A stretch of 64,000 bases of DNA, taken from IMG/VR virus record IMGVR_UViG_3300044846_003573; one strand, written 5' to 3'. The DNA is from a virus (Duplodnaviria; Caudoviricetes). The notes beneath the pieces are model-generated. The model searched no databases. It was not told where the DNA came from and worked only from the letters and a program-made list of their open reading frames with translations. The position numbers were made by a program, and so were the translations under genes. Positions 22,094 to 29,986 of this stretch are shown piece after piece (within the stretch, counting starts at the first letter, position 1; each line of letters opens with the position of its first letter).

Positions 22094-22120
22094 TGTTGTC
22101 CCAAATTTTGTCTATATTTG
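22089..22120 (+). promoter_or_regulatory. Bacteroidota-type promoter for the tRNA
   Basis: TTTG (22089-92), 20 nt spacer, TATATTTG (22113-20). Confidence 0.75.
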
Positions 22121-22132
22121 TGACAAATAATT

Positions 22133-22209
22133 GCCTTCGTAGCTCAGTAGGATAGAGCAACAGATTTCTAATCTGTGGGTCAGGGGTTCGAATCCCTTCG
22201 GGGGTACCA
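22133..22209 (+). tRNA. tRNA-Arg (anticodon UCU)
   Basis: Cloverleaf: anticodon arm ACAGA-TTTCTAA-TCTGT, T arm AGGGG-TTCGAAT-CCCTT, encoded CCA. Confidence 0.95.
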
Positions 22210-23702: not shown

Positions 23703-25391
23703 ATGAATAAAAAACAATTACACGAACAATCATTAAAAGAACTACGTAAGTTAGAATATATATTTGAGGATGCGATTGATAAATCAACTTTTTTTAACGC
23801 TAAAAACGCTAGAGCTCATTTACAAAGTTTAGGGTATAAAGTTAAACCAACATTAGATGAAGTTGGTGATATTACACCTGAGTTTTCTAGTATATTACAA
23901 AAAATAGGTTCAGCGTTTAAAAAAGAAATGCCTGATTTAAACATACAATTTGGTTCGGGTAGGGATAGTTTTCATCGAAGAATATCAGGTACCAGTAGAC
24001 ATAATAAAGGCAACGCTAATGACGTAGTTTTTTGGAAAAATGAACAAGGTGACATCAAAGAAACCGATAATGAAATATTGGATAAAATTTCAACGTTACT
24101 ATGTGCCGCAAGAAAAAGTATTCCAGGATTTACATTTATTGATGAATACAGACACGGAACAAGAAATTCAACAGGTAATCATTTTCACCTATCTTGGTCA
24201 GAGAATGGGAGAGATGAAAGTAGATTTACACCAAAGTTTTGTAATTCAATAAATGTGTCAAGTTTAGATAGTTTTGAATTTCCTGAAGTTCCAAATAATG
24301 AAATTATCGATAAAAAAGAACCGTCTAAACTTGATAAGTTTTTAGATTATGTTGGGTTAGGTGAATTGAGTGACGCGACGGCAGGTAATAAAGAAAGTCA
24401 AAAAGGACTGGTGGATAAGGCAAAAGAACTTTTTTCAGATGATGATGTGAAAGATAATGATGAAGGTTTTGAAATATTTGGATATAAATTAGACGATATA
24501 TTAGATAACGTAAAAAGTATTATACCTCAATTTGAATCTGAACAAAAGAAAAAAAATATTTTAGAAACTCTTCAGATTAGCGATATTTCAGGGATGTCAA
24601 CTTATGGAAGGAAAAATGAAAAACTTAAATCAAGAAATTTTTTTGTTATCCATCATACTGCTGGTAGGGGTGATGCTGAAAAAGTTGTTGGCATTCTTAA
24701 TAGTAGAAAAGGTGGATTAGGTGTTCAATGGGTTATAGAAAGAGATGGGTCTATTGTTCGAACATTACCTGATGGAAGTAGAGGGGCTCATATTTTAAAT
24801 TCAAGTGATTTCCCATCGGCTCCAAAAGGAATTAATAATTCTAACACTGAAGGTGTTGAAGTTGTTGGTATGAATGATGATGACATTTTACCTGTACAGG
24901 CGGTTTCTGCACTTAAATTGGTTAAATCTTTGGGGTATAGTCCTGATAGGATTTACGGCCATGGTGAAATAAATCCGGGACATAAAGCAAAAACTGAAGG
25001 TCAAACAATAAAACAATTTATTTTAAAAAATTGGGGTAATAGTGAATCTGATTATGACTATTCTATGTTTGATAATAGGGGTGGTGATATTGAAACTGAA
25101 AAAAATAATACTAAAGAACCAAATAAACTAGAAAAATTTTTAGACTATGTTGGGTTAGGAACTTTTGTAGACGCTAAACCCGGAGATAAAGAAAGTCAAA
25201 AAGAGTTAGTGTCAAAAATCCAAGATAAAAAAGATGTTAAAGATACTGGTGACGGATTTGAAATTTTTGGATATAGTGTTGATGATATCTTAGATAAAAT
25301 TGGTGATTTATTACCTCAATTTGAATCTGAACAAAAGAAAAAAAATATTTTAGAAGATATTCAAAAAATTAAATCAAAAATGATTAAATAA
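23703..25391 (+). CDS. Two-module peptidoglycan hydrolase: M15-like peptidase plus Amidase_2
   Basis: SRHNKGNANDV...HFHLS (H-x6-D...H); FVIHHTAG...IYGHGEI. Confidence 0.75.
   Translation: MNKKQLHEQSLKELRKLEYIFEDAIDKSTFFNAKNARAHLQSLGYKVKPTLDEVGDITPEFSSILQKIGSAFKKEMPDLNIQFGSGRDSFHRRISGTSRHNKGNANDVVFWKNEQGDIKETDNEILDKISTLLCAARKSIPGFTFIDEYRHGTRNSTGNHFHLSWSENGRDESRFTPKFCNSINVSSLDSFEFPEVPNNEIIDKKEPSKLDKFLDYVGLGELSDATAGNKESQKGLVDKAKELFSDDDVKDNDEGFEIFGYKLDDILDNVKSIIPQFESEQKKKNILETLQISDISGMSTYGRKNEKLKSRNFFVIHHTAGRGDAEKVVGILNSRKGGLGVQWVIERDGSIVRTLPDGSRGAHILNSSDFPSAPKGINNSNTEGVEVVGMNDDDILPVQAVSALKLVKSLGYSPDRIYGHGEINPGHKAKTEGQTIKQFILKNWGNSESDYDYSMFDNRGGDIETEKNNTKEPNKLEKFLDYVGLGTFVDAKPGDKESQKELVSKIQDKKDVKDTGDGFEIFGYSVDDILDKIGDLLPQFESEQKKKNILEDIQKIKSKMIK
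24315..25355 (+). repeat. Dispersed ~82-aa direct repeat (24315-24566 and 25113-25355)
   Basis: KEP.KL.KFLDYVGLG...GFEIFGY..DDILD....PQFESEQKKKNILE; final 44 nt identical (24523-24566 = 25312-25355). Confidence 0.9.
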
Positions 25392-25417
25392 AAAAAGGGA
25401 CTAAAAAGTCCCTTTTT
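25390..25417. terminator. Bidirectional terminator between the amidase gene and tmRNA
   Basis: AAAAAAAGGGACT-AAAA-AGTCCCTTTTT. Confidence 0.8.
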
Positions 25418-25420
25418 AAT

Positions 25421-25815
25421 TGGTGGAGATGCGGGGATTCGAACCCCGGTCCAAATATGTCGACCATAAAACACTACACGTTTAGGTCATTGTTTTTCTA
25501 AACAATCCGAAACTTCACAATTCCCTTATTTTATAGTGGTTCGGTTTACTGAGAACTAATCCTCCACTTTGTTCCTTTTCGGATAGAAACCACACCACGG
25601 TACAAGCTTCTGTTGCAAGGTTATATGCTCACCGACCCCGTTGTATACTAATCTTAGATTAGGCTACAGTTACTTCTTCAGTACGGATTAAACCGAGTGT
25701 AGAAAGTTTTGCAATTGTGTTGCCGTTTGTGTTTTAAACCAGTTTTACAGGGTTAGTTTAGCCCCGACGTGCGTTTTATGACAGATTCATACCTGTCAAA
25801 TCCAAAAACATCCCC
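25421..25815 (-). ncRNA. ssrA: tmRNA
   Basis: 5' GGGGATG...GGATTTGAC; 3' CGGGGTTCGAATCCCCGCATCTCCACCA; G3:U70 acceptor pair; internal tag ORF 25724-25659. Confidence 0.93.
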
Positions 25816-25837
25816 ATATACTCAAAGAACTATGTTA

Positions 25838-25851
25838 CAAAGATATAAATA
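25838..25851 (-). promoter_or_regulatory. Overlapping host-type (TATCTTTG) and late-type (TATTTAT) motifs upstream of the tmRNA
   Basis: + strand CAAAGATATAAATA; TTG lies 20 nt further upstream. Confidence 0.55.
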
Positions 25852-25890
25852 TATTCTTCTTTTACCAAGTATTTATTAAAAAAAAGTTTA

Positions 25891-26970
25891 ATGAGTCAAC
25901 TTTATCAGGCATTAAAAGATTTTACGGAAGATTTAGTTACTGCAAATTTTGTTAGGTACGAAGACGATGAGGATATTTTACGTATTACAAGAATAAATGA
26001 AAAAAATCTTGGTAAGTCTTTGGTTTATTTAACGTTTGATAGTGATGATTATGTTGACCTTTTCACTAGAAATAATGATGAAACTAATAACGGTTATTTA
26101 ATTAGAGTTGCTTTCCAAGGGGGGTATTATGGAGGTAATGTTTTTGTTGATGATTATTCCATGGATTATGATTGGGATGAGGGTTATTTACTACACTATT
26201 TCAATGATGAGAATTTAGATAGGGTTAAACAAATAGTAAAAATATTAAGACCTAGTCTTTCCGTTGAGGATTTAAGAAATCATAACGATAAAGTTATTGA
26301 AATTTGTAAGTGGTTAAAAAATGAATTTTCAAATGAGATAGATAGTATTATTTACGATTATTCAAGTGAATATGATGAAGCCTTGGTTAAAGGATTAAGA
26401 CAATATGTTATATCTAAATTATGTAACGCTTTACTTCCTTTAAATATCTTTGAGAAAAAATGTACTAATCTCTACATGACAACTGTATCAATTCTTTTAA
26501 ATACTTGGGATAAGTCTGGTGAAGACAAAGACGCTAAACTTTCAGATATGTTAAAAACAAGTATTGACCAATTGGGAATACAGTTTGATGAAGATTTATA
26601 TGAAGATTATTATGCTTATTTTGATAGTCAAAATTATGATGATGAAGGTTTTAACAGAAGTGTAACTTGGAATCTTGATAAAATCATGGAAAAAATTGAA
26701 AATAGTGATAATATTGATTCTTATCGTAAAAACTCTGAAACACTTGAAAAACTATCAAAGTTAAAGTATGGTGAATTTAATAGATGGTATGAATTTCCTT
26801 CACAAAAAACATTTGGTGAAAAGACACCAAACAAATTCATAATTCAAGATGTTGATGACGGAAAAATACTCATTACATATAGTAATCATAGTAAAAATGA
26901 ATTTAACCAAACCGTTAAAATTGATTATGATACTTTCTTAAATTTTTTATATCATCCTGAATTGTTTTAA
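25891..26970 (+). CDS. Acidic hypothetical protein
   Basis: 359-aa ORF; TATTTAT at 25870. Confidence 0.7.
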   Translation: MSQLYQALKDFTEDLVTANFVRYEDDEDILRITRINEKNLGKSLVYLTFDSDDYVDLFTRNNDETNNGYLIRVAFQGGYYGGNVFVDDYSMDYDWDEGYLLHYFNDENLDRVKQIVKILRPSLSVEDLRNHNDKVIEICKWLKNEFSNEIDSIIYDYSSEYDEALVKGLRQYVISKLCNALLPLNIFEKKCTNLYMTTVSILLNTWDKSGEDKDAKLSDMLKTSIDQLGIQFDEDLYEDYYAYFDSQNYDDEGFNRSVTWNLDKIMEKIENSDNIDSYRKNSETLEKLSKLKYGEFNRWYEFPSQKTFGEKTPNKFIIQDVDDGKILITYSNHSKNEFNQTVKIDYDTFLNFLYHPELF

Positions 26971-26997
26971 TAAAAAAATAGCTTATCTTTATGAGCT

Positions 26998-27816
26998 ATG
27001 ATAGAAAATGTTGATTTTTTAAAAAAGGTATTGTCAATACCTACAAAATCATTTAAAGAAGATTTAATGATTGAATTTTTGGTTAAATATTTAACCGAAA
27101 AAAAACATAATTTTAAAGTTGATGACTTTGGAAATGTTTATGTCACAAAGGGTGAAATAAACGAGGGTGAATTTTACCCTTGTATTGTTGCACATACTGA
27201 TACGGTTCATAACATTGACACAATCAATATCCATGAAGAACAACTTAAAGACTCAAAAGGTAATCCAAGTTTATCACTTAAAGCATATAACGATTTGGGT
27301 AACCCGACAGGTATTGGTGGTGATGATAAGTGTGGAGTGTTTGCCTGTCTTCAGTTATTGGAAGTCTTTGATGTAATTAAAGTTGCTTTATTTGTATCTG
27401 AAGAAGTTGGTTGTTTGGGTTCAAAAGAAGCTGACAGGGGTTTTTTTAGTAATGTAGGTTACGCAATTCAATTTGACGCTCCTGACGACTACATGGTAAC
27501 AGAATATTGTTATGGTGTTAAAGTATTTGAAACGGATTCTGAATTTGAAACAAAGGCTAAAAAAGTTCTTTCTGAAGGTATGTTATCTGAACCAAAATAT
27601 ATGCAACACCCTTACACAGATGTTTGGCAACTTCGTAAAAAGTTTGACTTCTCTTGTATCAACTTTTCAATCGGATATCACAACTATCACACACCAAACG
27701 AATATGTTGTTGTCCATGAAGTTTTTGCCGGTATGAATACAGGTAAAAAACTAATCGAAGAACTCGGTAAACAGAAATACCAATTCATACACAGTTCACA
27801 AGTTTTTAATTTTTAA
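26998..27816 (+). CDS. M28/M20-family zinc peptidase
   Basis: IVAHTDTVH, GGDDKCG, SEEVGCLGS, IQFD, GYHNYHT metal-ligand pattern. Confidence 0.85.
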   Translation: MIENVDFLKKVLSIPTKSFKEDLMIEFLVKYLTEKKHNFKVDDFGNVYVTKGEINEGEFYPCIVAHTDTVHNIDTINIHEEQLKDSKGNPSLSLKAYNDLGNPTGIGGDDKCGVFACLQLLEVFDVIKVALFVSEEVGCLGSKEADRGFFSNVGYAIQFDAPDDYMVTEYCYGVKVFETDSEFETKAKKVLSEGMLSEPKYMQHPYTDVWQLRKKFDFSCINFSIGYHNYHTPNEYVVVHEVFAGMNTGKKLIEELGKQKYQFIHSSQVFNF

Positions 27817-27820
27817 TTAT

Positions 27821-27849
27821 AAAAAAAAGGGGGTTTATTCCCCCTTTTT
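27821..27849. terminator. Bidirectional terminator
   Basis: A-run GGGGG-TTTATT-CCCCC T-run. Confidence 0.75.
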
Positions 27850-29898
27850 CTTTCTTGGTCTTTTCACTTTTGGTGTTTCATCAGGTTGGGCTTCAACTTC
27901 TGATATTGACACTTCCTCCTCATTGATTTCAATATTGTAGGACTTATACATTACAATTTTTTCACGTAATACTTCATCTGAAATGTAGTCTTCAATCTTT
28001 TCTTGAATCGCTCTTTTCAAAGGACGTGCTCCGTAAACATCATCAAATCCAACTTTTGAAACAAAGTCAATTACTGACTGACCGAAGTTAATGTTATATC
28101 CCAATTTTGACAAACGAGATTTCAATTTGTTAACTTCAACCAAAACAATCTTTTGAATATCGTCATTTTGAAGTGTATTGAATACAATTACCTCATCCAA
28201 ACGATTGATAAATTCAGGTGCGAAGTGGTTCTTCAATTCTTTGTTTAACATTGTTTTTTTAAGTTCTTCATTAGCATAAACATTATTAGTTTTACTAAAC
28301 CCAACACCTGCTCCAAATTCTTGCATCTTTTTCACCCCAAGATTTGAAGTCATAATAATTAAACAGTTCTTGAAATTGATTTTTCTTCCAAAACTATCTG
28401 TCATGTAACCTTCATCCAACAATTGAAGTAATGCCGAGAATATATCTTTGTGAGCCTTCTCAACCTCGTCAAATAATACCACAGAGTATGGTTTGGTTTT
28501 AACTTGTTCTGTAAGTTGACCACCTTCATCATATCCTACATAACCTGGAGGTGAACCAATCAAACGAGATACGGTATGTTTATCTTGATATTCAGACATA
28601 TCAACTCGGATAAGATTTTCATCACTACCAAAGATTTGTCTTGCCAATTCTTTTGCCAATAATGTCTTACCAACACCTGTTGAACCTAAGAATATAAATG
28701 AACCAATTGGTTTATTTGGGTCTTTGATACCTAATCTATTTCTACGAATAGATTTCGCAATCTTTGTAACCGCTTCTTTTTGTCCAATGACTGATTTATT
28801 TAACTCTTCCTCTAAATTAATAAGAGCAATTTTATCATCTAAATTAAGTTTTGTTAAAGGTATTTTTGTCATTGTTGACACTACCTCGTAAACCAATTCT
28901 TCAGAAATTGTTTTTCTATTATCCAAAAGAGTTTGTTCAAACTTTTTCTTTTCAATATCAAGTTGTGATAAAACTTTCTTTTCTTTATCTCTTAAGTTAG
29001 CGGCTTCTTCGTAATTCTGTTTTTTAACAACAAGTAATTTTTGTTGTTTAATCTCTAACGCCTGACGTTTTAATTCATCAATTATTTCAGGATTTTTTAC
29101 ATCCACCTGAGCTCTTGCTCCGACTTCATCTAAGATGTCAAACGCTTTGTCAGGGAACTCTCTGTCCGTGATATATCGCTCCGCTAAGTCAACACAGATT
29201 TGTAGAATATTATCGGTATAATTTACTTTGTGATAATTTTCGTATCTGTCTTTAACATTTTTAAGGATTTGTAATGTTTCTTCTTTTGTTGATGAACTAA
29301 CAATTACTTTTTGAAAACGTCTATCCAACGCTCCGTCCTTTTCAATTTGTTTTTTATACTCATCTAATGTTGTAGCTCCAATACATTGTATTTCACCTCT
29401 TGATAATGCTGGTTTTAAGATATTGGATGCGTCCATGGAACCTGAGGCGTTACCTGCTCCGACAATGGTATGGATTTCATCAATGAATAGAATAACATTT
29501 GGGGTTGCTTGAATTTCTTCCAAGATAACCTTTAATCGTTCCTCAAATTGACCACGATACTTTGTTCCGGCAACAACTGAATTCATCTCTAATGAAAGAA
29601 TACGTTTGTCAACCAAGTTTCTTGGACAATCACCTTCAAAAATCTTCATTGCCAATCCCTCAACAATTGCCGTCTTACCACAACCAGGTTCACCGATGAT
29701 AATTGGGTTGTTTTTCTTTCTTCTTGAAAGGATTTGAGCAATACGTAATATTTCGTCTTCTCTACCGACAACGGGGTCTAACTTACCTTCTTCGGCAAGT
29801 TTAATAAGGTCACGACTAAAATTGTCTAAAACAGGTGTACTTGAGTTAACCTCTGCTTTTTTTGGTAGTTTCCCACCTTCTTCAACTGAATCTGTCAT
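27835..29898 (-). CDS. clpC: ClpC-type AAA+ unfoldase lacking the N-terminal Clp-repeat domain
   Basis: GEPGCGKT and GSTGVGKT Walker A motifs, KYRG and GYVG pore loops, UVR motif [13 protein letters not shown] loop; start at ATG 29898, TACATTTG upstream. Confidence 0.88.
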
Positions 29899-29986
29899 AA
29901 AATAGTTTTTATTAAAATTAAATGAATTTGTTCTTAAATTCAACTACAAATGTAATTCAAAATTATTTATCATTAAAAAAAAAGTT

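What the first reader, a model, noticed from the sequence alone, without database searches (positions are those of the whole stretch)
25421..25851. Phage tmRNA with a long non-canonical tag (A)GNTIAKLSTLGLIRTEEVTVA
Seen: an intact tRNA-like domain, resume codon GGC (25724) after ACAAAC, a 21-codon tag ending GCC TAA with a CTAATC/GATTAG hairpin over the stop, and overlapping host-type and late promoter motifs. Established: Bacteroidota tags are short and end YALAA, and ClpXP reads the terminal LAA. Inference: the VTVA end and extra amphipathic segment may redirect rescued proteins away from host ClpXP, or toward the phage Clp 2 kb away. It may also back up a host tmRNA cleaved by defence nucleases. 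No smpB is seen in this window.
Basis: partly seen in the sequence, partly recalled or inferred. Interest (0 to 1): 0.75.

Follow-up and report, generated by a model that had tools for sequence, protein, structure and literature searches.

The report
Jumbo-phage tmRNA with conserved long tag
An uncultured ~300-kb lake phage carries its own working-looking copy of tmRNA, the RNA that frees jammed ribosomes. It writes a conserved 21-residue tail, unlike the 8-10-residue tail of its likely hosts, onto unfinished proteins; phage tmRNAs are already known, so this is a well-supported new member with an unusually informative tag.

Summary
Window 25421-25815 (minus strand) is a full-length one-piece tmRNA (Rfam RF00023, 136 bits, E 3e-53; also found by ARAGORN). 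It lies in a 156-kb IMG/VR phage record estimated at about half of a ~300-kb genome.

- **Tag.** Reading resumes at GGC (25724) and gives GNTIAKLSTLGLIRTEEVTVA, with the stop codon inside a hairpin that covaries.
- **Family.** About 100 viral contigs carry the same tag family: 28 peptide variants, 27 of 21 residues, all ending V-A. Synonymous third-position changes mark it as translated.
- **Not found in cells.** A 24-base piece of the tag template is in none of 185,579 species genomes. A degenerate tag-end pattern is in none of 401 Bacteroidota genomes. All but two of the 70 Bacteroidota tags that ARAGORN read are 8-10 residues ending LAA or MAA; the two exceptions look like miscalls.
- **Gene signals.** It has a conserved promoter and an intrinsic terminator, and its sequence occurs in 14 freshwater metatranscriptome runs.
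- **Partners.** No SmpB was found in this record or four large relatives, so host SmpB is presumably used.
- **Neighbours.** An N-domain-less ClpC and an M20-type peptidase lie within about 2-7 kb in every relative with enough flank.

That the tag redirects proteins to the phage ClpC is untested. The "amphipathic" claim failed a simple test. Known phage tmRNAs (Bxz1, phage G, Cellulophaga phages) also carry non-ALAA tags. The scan had flagged this same stretch in other windows of this genome.

The parts
25421..25815 (-). one-piece tmRNA gene (395 nt, CCA encoded)
   Evidence: ARAGORN. Rfam RF00023 at 136.3 bits over the full model. 20 of 87 predicted pairs show compensatory changes among 14 relatives.
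25809..25815 (-). 5' strand of the acceptor stem, with G3 that pairs with U (the G3.U70 alanine identity pair)
   Evidence: Alignment columns 4/394 are G-U in all 14 sequences, and pair 6/392 switches A-U to G-C in three. That G3.U70 is the alanine identity element is my own knowledge.
25421..25452 (-). T arm, 3' acceptor strand and ACCA end of the tRNA-like domain
   Evidence: T-stem pairs 374/388 occur as G-C, C-G and U-A, and 376/386 as G-C or C-G. The T loop is GGUUCGAAU.
25734..25771 (-). pseudoknot 1, ending 10 nt before the resume codon
   Evidence: Rfam alignment. Stem 51-55/65-69 has G-C to A-U changes. The second stem, read from alignment A1, is UAAAC/GUUUA, UAAGC/GCUUA or UGAGU/AUUCA in different relatives.
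25659..25724 (-). tag reading frame: resume codon GGC, 21 sense codons (GNTIAKLSTLGLIRTEEVTVA), stop UAA
   Evidence: Only this frame is open, and 11 of 20 variable sites are third codon positions. Synonymous variants include GGC/GGA, GUU/GUA/GUG, CGU/CGC and GAA/GAG. AAA[C/U] is invariant before GGC, which puts an A four bases upstream.
25648..25662 (-). hairpin holding the stop codon (CUAAUC-UAA-GAUUAG)
   Evidence: Pairs 158/172 (C-G in 8 sequences, U-A in 6) and 163/167 (C-G in 11, U-A in 3) change on both sides.
25838..25868 (-). promoter-like region: TTG (25868-25866), a 20-nt variable spacer, TATCTTTG (25845-25838), overlapped by TATTTAT (25851-25845)
   Evidence: Both blocks are conserved in 23 distinct upstream sequences while the spacer varies. 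Some relatives have TTTA instead of TTTG, whereas TATTTAT never varies. The motif alone is not enriched in the window.
25392..25417 (-). intrinsic terminator directly after CCA; it also closes the convergent amidase gene
   Evidence: 11-pair stem with a 4-nt loop and a T run; 1 site found against 0.3 expected.
27835..29943 (-). neighbour: N-domain-less ClpC-type double AAA+ unfoldase (702 aa)
   Evidence: Pfam AAA_2, AAA_lid_9 and ClpB_D2-small. Best solved relative is S. aureus ClpC 6em9, 730 bits in one stretch, query 29-680 against 153-803. GAGVGF aligns to the ClpC FAGFGG loop. Conserved near the tmRNA in relatives.
26998..27816 (+). neighbour: M20/M28-like metallopeptidase (272 aa)
   Evidence: Weak Pfam and NCBIfam matches to M20-family peptidases. 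phrog_4191 'peptidase' at 2e-35. Always found between the tmRNA and ClpC.
25891..26970 (+). neighbour: fast-evolving 359-aa protein of unknown fold, transcribed divergently from the tmRNA
   Evidence: No Pfam, PHROG, NCBIfam or Atlas hit. AlphaFold model with pLDDT 86.8 has no fold match.

Best explanation
This is a functional tmRNA gene of a freshwater jumbo phage. Shown: the RNA keeps every sequence and structure element of a one-piece tmRNA. It has its own conserved promoter-like region and terminator. Its sequence is present in lake RNA libraries. Its tag frame is under selection as a peptide across about 100 related viral contigs. Inferred: host alanyl-tRNA synthetase charges it (G3.U pair and A discriminator). 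Host SmpB and EF-Tu bring it to ribosomes stalled on broken or stop-less mRNAs, which should be plentiful once the phage degrades host RNA. Translation then resumes at GGC, four bases after the invariant A, and the nascent chain receives (A)GNTIAKLSTLGLIRTEEVTVA before normal termination frees the ribosome. The phage thus keeps ribosomes recycling with its own supply of rescue RNA. The tail, with its invariant hydrophobic V-A end and invariant K6, G11, R14 and acidic 16-17, most likely acts as a degradation signal for an AAA+ protease. Its strict conservation suggests a specific reader beyond the last two residues. Which protease reads it (host ClpXP, another host protease, or the phage ClpC with ClpP) is open.
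For: - Identity: (136 bits, full model).
- Phage origin: the window lies in a 155,988-bp IMG/VR virus record, with phage lysis and structural neighbours. The same gene order recurs in dozens of viral contigs.
- Structure under selection: 20 of 87 pairs show compensatory changes, and G3.U is kept in all 14 sequences.
- Frame: the region is open only in frame 0, and 11 of 20 variable sites are third positions. ARAGORN calls GN... on relatives. An A four bases before the resume codon is the frame-setting residue in E. coli (PMC2481249), and AAA[C/U]GG is invariant here.
- Tag family: 28 variants, 27 of them 21 residues, with V20 and A21 invariant although the search did not impose them. A search made through ClpC rather than through the tag found GNVLDKMATIGLIRE[ED]AAVVA in tmRNAs that score only 66-68 bits.
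- Not cellular: a 24-mer of the tag is in 0 genomes of the species collection, and the degenerate tag end is in 0 of 401 Bacteroidota genomes.
- Host-type tags are short.
- Expression signals.
- RNA libraries: 14 metatranscriptome runs hold it. Among the pieces laid is a 355-nt contig spanning 25425-25790.
- SmpB not found in the phage records.
Against: - No experiment shows charging, tagging or degradation.
- Presence in RNA libraries comes from assembled contigs of runs chosen because they hold this sequence, so it is only a hint of expression.
- The host is not identified. The Bacteroidota assignment rests on a promoter-like motif and on earlier unchecked notes, and blastn and nhmmer find only the universal 3' tRNA-like part in common with Bacteroidota tmRNAs.
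- The phage records are 52-82% complete, so an SmpB gene elsewhere in the genome is not excluded.
- That the tag is a degron is an analogy with cellular tags.
Confidence: 0.8

Rival explanations
1. Orthogonal phage degradation module. The 21-residue tag is read specifically by the phage's own N-domain-less ClpC, docked on host ClpP (or phage ClpP where present). The resulting peptides are trimmed by the adjacent M20-type peptidase. Truncated proteins are thus recycled into amino acids under phage control, independently of host ClpX and its adaptors.
For: - The order tmRNA, orf25891, M20 peptidase, ClpC is kept in every relative with enough flank, down to ClpC identities of 60-70% and tmRNAs that have diverged strongly.
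- The ClpC has both Walker-motif sets, both pore loops (KYRG, GYVG), a short UVR-type middle domain and a VGF loop where ClpC docks ClpP.
- It lacks the N domain that binds cellular adaptors.
- One relative of 208 kb encodes a true ClpP (184 bits).
- The tag is conserved over far more positions than a minimal C-terminal signal would need.
Against: - These phages are collinear over long distances, so a kept neighbourhood is weak evidence of a functional link.
- tmRNA and clpC have separate promoters, with two genes on the other strand between them.
- No ClpP was found in this record or in three of four large relatives.
- More distant phage ClpC homologues (37-38% identity) have no tmRNA nearby in the two loci scanned.
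- No binding or degradation test could be run; the tag is too short for the complex predictor's rules.
Confidence: 0.2
2. Rescue without destruction. The tail is not a degradation signal. The phage only needs ribosome release, and the long conserved peptide has another role, such as keeping tagged fragments soluble, sequestering them, or marking them for a non-proteolytic partner.
For: - The end is V-A, not the L-A-A of the likely hosts.
- The conserved core K-L-x-x-x-G-L-I-R-T-E-E has no counterpart in the cellular tags read here.
- From my own knowledge, ribosome release rather than proteolysis is the essential function of tmRNA in several bacteria.
Against: - A small hydrophobic C-terminus is the common feature of tmRNA tags (PMC4131195), and it is invariant here.
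- None of 218 long ORFs of the phage record ends in -VA or -AA, as might be expected if such ends are harmful to a protein. With 218 ORFs this is weak evidence.
- The peptide is not amphipathic beyond chance.
Confidence: 0.1
3. Decoy. The RNA mainly soaks up host SmpB or competes with host tmRNA to disable the host's quality control, and the tag frame is incidental.
For: - A mycobacteriophage (DS6A) carries little more than the tRNA-like domain, and such molecules inhibit tmRNA (PMC4131195).
- No phage SmpB was found.
Against: The tag frame is the best-conserved part of the RNA outside the tRNA-like domain and evolves like a coding sequence. The frame-setting A, pseudoknot 1 and the stop hairpin are all kept.
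Confidence: 0.05
4. Not a phage gene. It is a host ssrA picked up by mis-assembly, or a remnant of a prophage attachment site.
For: From general knowledge, tmRNA genes are frequent integration sites for prophages (also noted in PMC3029335).
Against: - The gene is complete, and phage genes flank it on both sides of a 156-kb viral contig.
- It is found at the same place in about 100 viral contigs from many samples.
- Its tag was not found in cellular genomes.
Confidence: 0.02

Closest known systems
Bacterial one-piece tmRNA (SsrA, Rfam RF00023), for example the Bacteroidota tmRNAs with tag GENNYALAA
   Same: Full architecture: an alanine-type tRNA-like domain with G3.U, pseudoknot 1, an A four bases before the resume codon, a short frame ending in a stop-codon hairpin, further pseudoknots, and an encoded CCA. 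Several Bacteroidota tags also start G-N or G-N-T (GNTSYALAA, GNTQYAMAA).
   Different: It is encoded by a virus. The tag has 21 residues instead of 8-10 and ends V-A instead of L-A-A or M-A-A. Outside the 3' tRNA-like part there is no detectable sequence similarity to the 70 Bacteroidota tmRNAs compared. No partner smpB gene was found in the same genome.
Previously recorded phage tmRNAs: mycobacteriophage Bxz1 (cluster C1), Bacillus phage G, Cellulophaga phages phi38:1 and phi14:2, and the two-piece tmRNA of phage Melnitz
   Same: These are phage-borne tmRNA genes, mostly in large phages rich in tRNAs. 402 of 18,146 phage genomes carry one (PMC9004378; list in PMC4131195). Their ARAGORN tags are also unlike host tags: Bxz1 ATDTDATVTDAEIEAFFAEEAAALV, phage G AKLNITNNELQVA, phi38:1 AQIEANMEAVNAILNLEVAVGV, phi14:2 GSSVQKLAMVA.
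   Different: No sequence relationship was found (blastn against 50,697 phage records gave no match). Here the tag frame is verified by comparison of about 100 contigs rather than by one ARAGORN call. The gene sits beside an N-domain-less ClpC and a peptidase. I did not check the tags of the other phages by comparative analysis.
Mycoplasma tmRNA tags (about 27 residues), which are degraded by Lon instead of ClpXP (Gur and Sauer 2008, recalled from memory and not read here)
   Same: A long tag whose internal residues, not only the last three, carry the recognition signal. This is a precedent for a tag that switched to another protease.
   Different: That case is cellular and occurs in a lineage that lost ClpXP. 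There is no sequence similarity. For the phage tag no protease has been tested.
ClpC of Firmicutes (S. aureus ClpC, PDB 6em9; B. subtilis ClpC/MecB, 3j3s), as the relative of the neighbouring gene
   Same: Two AAA+ rings, a short UVR-type middle domain and a ClpP-docking loop. The match is 730 bits in a single stretch.
   Different: It lacks the ~150-residue N domain that binds MecA-type adaptors and phospho-arginine (query 29-680 aligns to 153-803). It is 41-47% identical to ClpC of many phyla, so it does not identify a donor.

Membership tests
tmRNA (SsrA, RF00023), one-piece form | Covariance-model match above the curated threshold over the full model | tested here: met
   136.3 bits against a gathering score of 47, model positions 1-374 of 374. 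ARAGORN agrees.
tmRNA (SsrA, RF00023), one-piece form | tRNA-like domain: 7-bp acceptor stem with G3.U70, T arm, discriminator A and CCA | tested here: met
   G-U at the third pair in 14 of 14 sequences. Acceptor and T stems show compensatory changes. ...CUCCACCA is encoded.
tmRNA (SsrA, RF00023), one-piece form | Pseudoknot 1 followed by a single-stranded A-rich leader with the frame-setting A four bases before the resume codon | tested here: met
   Rfam alignment. Both PK1 stems covary. AAA[C/U] is invariant before GGC. The rule comes from PMC2481249.
tmRNA (SsrA, RF00023), one-piece form | Short open frame without a start codon, conserved as peptide, ending in a hydrophobic residue, with the stop in helix 5 | tested here: met
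   21 codons, a third-position bias, and it is the only open frame. There are 28 peptide variants, all ending V-A. The stop hairpin covaries.
tmRNA (SsrA, RF00023), one-piece form | Pseudoknots 2-4 between the tag and the 3' tRNA-like half | tested here: inconclusive
   Rfam aligns this part with low posterior probability. Several stems there covary (columns 186-222, 283-308, 312-336). Pseudoknot topology was not tested, and one segment exists as two alternative cassettes.
tmRNA (SsrA, RF00023), one-piece form | Works with SmpB | not testable with these tools
   No SmpB gene in this record or in four relatives that are 71-82% complete. Use of host SmpB is inferred.
Canonical ssrA degron read by ClpXP (C-terminal L-A-A) | The last three residues are L-A-A or a close variant (M-A-A) | tested here: not met
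   The ends are [TSAV]-V-A in all 28 variants. Bacteroidota tags end LAA or MAA.
Canonical ssrA degron read by ClpXP (C-terminal L-A-A) | Degraded by ClpXP | not testable with these tools
   This needs a degradation assay. From my own knowledge, engineered -LVA tags remain ClpXP substrates.
ClpC-type Hsp100 unfoldase (neighbouring gene 27835-29943) | Two AAA+ modules with Walker A and B motifs and pore loops | tested here: met
   GEPGCGKT and ILFIDEIH; GSTGVGKT and [10 protein letters not shown]; KYRG and GYVG. Pfam AAA, AAA_2, AAA_lid_9 and D2-small.
ClpC-type Hsp100 unfoldase (neighbouring gene 27835-29943) | Short middle domain (unlike ClpB) and a ClpP-docking loop | tested here: met
   One continuous alignment to ClpC structures but two separate stretches to ClpB. 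GAGVGF aligns to FAGFGG of S. aureus ClpC.
ClpC-type Hsp100 unfoldase (neighbouring gene 27835-29943) | N-terminal Clp_N repeat domain that binds adaptors | tested here: not met
   The alignment starts at residue 153 of ClpC, and only about 28 residues precede it in the phage protein.

The most novel reading that the evidence does not exclude
The 21-residue tail is an orthogonal, phage-specific degradation handle. The phage's own adaptor-independent ClpC (with host or phage ClpP) reads it and feeds the adjacent peptidase. The phage thus owns a complete 'tag, unfold, cut, recycle' line that bypasses host ClpX. More broadly, phage tmRNAs as a class may carry tags deliberately different from those of their hosts: all five phage tmRNA families read here do.
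Probability: 0.2. Interest if true: 0.75.

Novelty: new member of a known kind. Interest (0 to 1): 0.5.

Why it matters
Phage tmRNAs have been listed for twenty years, but their tags have hardly been examined and no function has been shown. This family gives an unusually clean case. It is abundant in lakes, its RNA turns up in metatranscriptomes, and its tag is fixed at 21 residues with about ten near-invariant positions while the rest of the RNA diverges. That points to a specific reader protein. A candidate reader, a ClpC stripped of its adaptor domain, sits next door.

If the tag proves to be an orthogonal degron, three things would follow:
- It would show that viruses run their own protein quality-control channel.
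- It would explain why large phages carry Clp ATPases.
- It would provide a new degradation tag for engineering Bacteroidota.

If the tag is simply degraded by host ClpXP, the finding is an ordinary auxiliary translation gene of a jumbo phage.

Tried and rejected
- **Similar phage records.** blastn of the tmRNA against 50,697 phage records gave no match.
- **Closest cellular tmRNA.** blastn and an nhmmer profile of the phage family against 75 cellular tmRNA loci align only the universal 3' tRNA-like part, at 20-33 bits. This cannot rank host groups.
- **Host from ClpC.** Cellular ClpC homologues are 41-47% identical across Bacteroidales, Saccharibacteria, Christensenellaceae, Acidobacteriota and others, so ClpC does not identify the host.
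- **Promoter motif enrichment.** TAnnTTTG is not enriched in the window (111 found, 114 expected). Only its conservation upstream of the tmRNA counts.
- **Reads on the flanks.** In the four RNA runs laid, the flanking genes (24400-25356 and 25879-27000) had no contig cover.
- **orf25891 as adaptor or SmpB substitute.** It has no family hit. A confident model (pLDDT 86.8) found no fold relative in PDB or AlphaFold clusters, with TM about 0.1. Nothing links it to the tag.
- **Amphipathic helix in the tag.** Not above shuffled controls.
- **Phage proteins with tag-like C-termini, as natural substrates.** None of 218 ORFs ends in -VA or -AA.
- **Complex prediction of tag with ClpC.** Not attempted, because the tag is shorter than the 30 residues the tool asks for.
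- **Formal pseudoknot pair count.** Left out to avoid typing a 400-character structure string. PK1 covariation was read from alignment A1 instead.
- **Patescibacteria as host.** A Patescibacteria host was considered because a Saccharibacteria MAG has a 22-residue tag ending VVA. There is no sequence similarity, and this was not pursued.

Full report
**What is there.** ARAGORN finds a tmRNA at 25421-25815 on the minus strand. Rfam's tmRNA model matches the same coordinates end to end at 136.3 bits against a threshold of 47, E 3.3e-53. The window belongs to a 155,988-bp IMG/VR virus record that CheckV rates at 52% complete, so the genome is about 300 kb. The surrounding genes are phage-like:
- an amidase-type endolysin;
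- a ClpC-like ATPase;
- an M20-type peptidase;
- several ORFs with no known family.

G+C content is about 30% throughout. This is therefore a phage gene, not a host fragment.

**The tag and its frame.** On the RNA strand the sequence after pseudoknot 1 reads ...UUUAAAACACAAAC GGC AAC ACA AUU GCA AAA CUU UCU ACA CUC GGU UUA AUC CGU ACU GAA GAA GUA ACU GUA GCC UAA. Four results favour GGC:
- Rfam aligns GGC to the consensus resume codon, 10 nt after pseudoknot 1.
- In relatives where the GCA codon is replaced by AAC or UCU, ARAGORN itself calls GNVINKLSTIGLIRTEEVSVA.
- AAA[C/U] directly before GGC is invariant, whereas the sequence further upstream varies. This places an A four bases before the resume codon, the residue that sets the frame in E. 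coli (PMC2481249).
- The codons from GGC onward change synonymously: GGC/GGA, GUU/GUA/GUG, AUU/AUC.

Only this frame is open, and 11 of 20 variable sites are third codon positions.

**A large phage family with one tag.** Exact and degenerate DNA patterns from the tag and from pseudoknot 1 retrieved about 100 IMG/VR contigs, some of 240-297 kb. A search that started from the neighbouring ClpC, and so did not presuppose the tag, found tmRNAs in a more distant group of 88-92-kb contigs. These score only 66-68 bits on Rfam yet encode GNVLDKMATIGLIRE[ED]AAVVA.

In all I read 28 distinct tag peptides, 27 of 21 residues and one of 22. The consensus is [GD]-[NE]-[VTI]-[ILF]-x-K-[LM]-x-x-[VILA]-G-[LF]-[ILV]-R-[TE]-[ED]-[EA]-[VA]-x-V-A. 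K6, G11 and R14 were imposed by the pattern used for that count; V20 and A21 were not, and they never vary. In the diverged members, blastn aligns little more than the tag template and the 3' tRNA-like part. The tag is therefore among the slowest-evolving parts of the RNA.

**RNA structure.** On 14 representative sequences, 20 of 87 predicted pairs keep pairing through changes on both sides:
- acceptor stem: A-U to G-C;
- T stem: G-C, C-G and U-A;
- long helix 2;
- first stem of pseudoknot 1;
- the stop-codon hairpin: C-G to U-A at two pairs;
- stems in the pseudoknot 2-4 region.

The second stem of pseudoknot 1 occurs as UAAAC/GUUUA, UAAGC/GCUUA and UGAGU/AUUCA (read). The third acceptor pair is G-U in all sequences. 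From my own knowledge this is the alanine identity element.

**Gene signals and RNA evidence.** Upstream, 23 distinct sequences share TAAATACTTG, a variable 20-nt spacer, then TAT[C/A]TTTG overlapped by an invariant TATTTAT, and a conserved leader TAGTTCTTTGA..TAT before the mature 5' G. This spacing fits the -33/-7 layout described for Bacteroidota promoters (my own knowledge). The motif alone is not enriched in the window, and a few relatives have TTTA in place of TTTG. An 11-pair hairpin plus a T run follows the CCA end immediately. The sequence is held by 14 freshwater or lake metatranscriptome runs from at least ten studies. In four runs laid on 2.6 kb, the pieces lie inside 25425-25804, including a 355-nt contig that spans almost the whole RNA and carries the alternative pseudoknot cassette. 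Because these are contigs from runs picked for this sequence, I count this only as a hint of expression.

**Comparison with cells.** A 24-base piece of the tag template occurs in none of the 185,579 species genomes. The degenerate pattern for R-T-E-E-V-x-V-A-stop occurs in none of 401 Bacteroidota genomes. I read 70 tmRNA tags from that phylum as GTDB defines it. All are 8-10 residues, such as GENNYALAA, ADDYSYAMAA and DNNYSYRLAA, apart from two evident ARAGORN miscalls. Some start G-N-T like the phage tag. One Saccharibacteria MAG has a 22-residue tag ending VVA, so long V-A tags do exist in cells, but it shows no similarity to the phage tag. The host remains unproven. Earlier notes of this scan propose Bacteroidota, and the promoter layout agrees.

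**Partners and neighbours.** No SmpB was found in this record or in four relatives of 208-242 kb that are 71-82% complete. No ClpP was found in this record or in three of those relatives; one relative has a clear ClpP.

The ATPase at 27835-29943 is ClpC-like. Its best solved relative is S. aureus ClpC, 730 bits in one stretch starting at residue 153, so the N domain is missing. It keeps a UVR-type short middle domain, intact Walker motifs and pore loops, and GAGVGF where ClpC carries its ClpP-docking loop.

The order tmRNA, orf25891, M20 peptidase, ClpC holds in every relative with enough flank, including those with ClpC at 60-70% identity. Phage ClpC homologues at 37-38% identity had no tmRNA nearby in the two loci scanned.

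orf25891 folds confidently but matches no known fold or family.

**Interpretation.** The evidence strongly supports a working phage tmRNA that uses host charging and delivery factors and appends a conserved 21-residue tail. By analogy with all studied tmRNAs, and given the invariant small hydrophobic end, the tail is most likely a proteolysis signal. The number of fixed internal positions suggests a dedicated reader. A -VA end does not by itself exclude ClpXP.

**What is known already.** Phage tmRNAs are well documented:
- eight mycobacteriophages, phage G and DS6A in Hudson, Lau and Williams 2014 (PMC4131195);
- tmRNA and SmpB in huge phages (PMC7162821);
- 402 of 18,146 phage genomes in Buchholz et al. 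2022, who proposed either upkeep of the hijacked translation machinery or tagging of host proteins for amino-acid recycling (PMC9004378).

I read four of these with ARAGORN. None has a host-like ALAA end: Bxz1 has 25 residues ending ALV, phage G 13 ending QVA, Cellulophaga phi38:1 22 ending VGV, and phi14:2 11 ending MVA. I found no paper that analyses phage tags as such.

The present case is therefore a new, very well supported member of a known kind. Its added value is the comparative proof of the frame, the breadth and strictness of tag conservation, and the fixed ClpC-peptidase neighbourhood.

Noticed in passing
L028:8399-8629; same insertion in L013, L020, L030, L031, L032, L033: In several relatives the tmRNA gene is split in its T loop by a ~230-nt group I intron (Rfam RF00028, 71.4 bits). 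The 3' exon ...CGACCCCCGGCATCTCCACCA follows it. ARAGORN misses these genes. As I recall, a T-loop intron in tmRNA was reported once, for Clostridium botulinum (Williams 2002).
   Followed up: partly
alignment A1 columns 253-335; L012, L016, L025, L013, L023, L020, L038 versus the window 25480-25565: The pseudoknot 3-4 region exists as two unrelated cassettes. They are distributed independently of the rest of the RNA, in a mosaic or recombinant pattern. One metatranscriptome contig (X2, record 7) carries the alternative cassette.
   Followed up: partly
L290:15372-15779, also L288, L291, L306: In the 88-92-kb contig group a GOLLD RNA (RF02032, 320-327 bits) lies about 500 nt from the tmRNA on the opposite strand. 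The two large structured RNAs are neighbours there.
   Followed up: no
window 25891-26970 (+): This 359-aa protein lies between the tmRNA and the peptidase. It evolves fast (23-97% identity among relatives) but keeps a C-terminal FLNFLYHPELF. The AlphaFold model has pLDDT 86.8, with no match in PDB, AlphaFold clusters, Pfam, PHROGs or the ESM Atlas.
   Followed up: yes
L201 (G004:C1:167371-167898): One 208-kb relative encodes a genuine ClpP (PF00574, 184 bits). This record and three other large relatives show none.
   Followed up: partly
L199:1501-1935 (Bxz1), L200:1501-1809 (phage G), L327:1503-1862 (phi38:1), L328:1501-1970 (phi14:2): By ARAGORN's calls, all four cultured-phage tmRNAs examined carry tags that do not end ALAA; they end ALV, QVA, VGV and MVA. 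With the present family that makes five of five phage tmRNA lineages with non-host-like tags. The frames of the other four were not verified by comparison.
   Followed up: partly
window 22133-22209 (+): A tRNA-Arg(UCU) has TATATTTG (22113-22120) 13 nt upstream. This is the same promoter-like motif and spacing class as upstream of the tmRNA.
   Followed up: no
L124 (G008:C2:37791-38177): A Saccharibacteria MAG has a tmRNA (126 bits) with a 22-residue tag, AKSLKEKVASLFAMPAFSPVVA. Long V-A-ending tags therefore exist in cellular lineages.
   Followed up: no
whole record G000: None of 218 ORFs of 60 residues or more in the phage record ends in -AA or -VA. The commonest C-terminal dipeptide is KK.
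   Followed up: no
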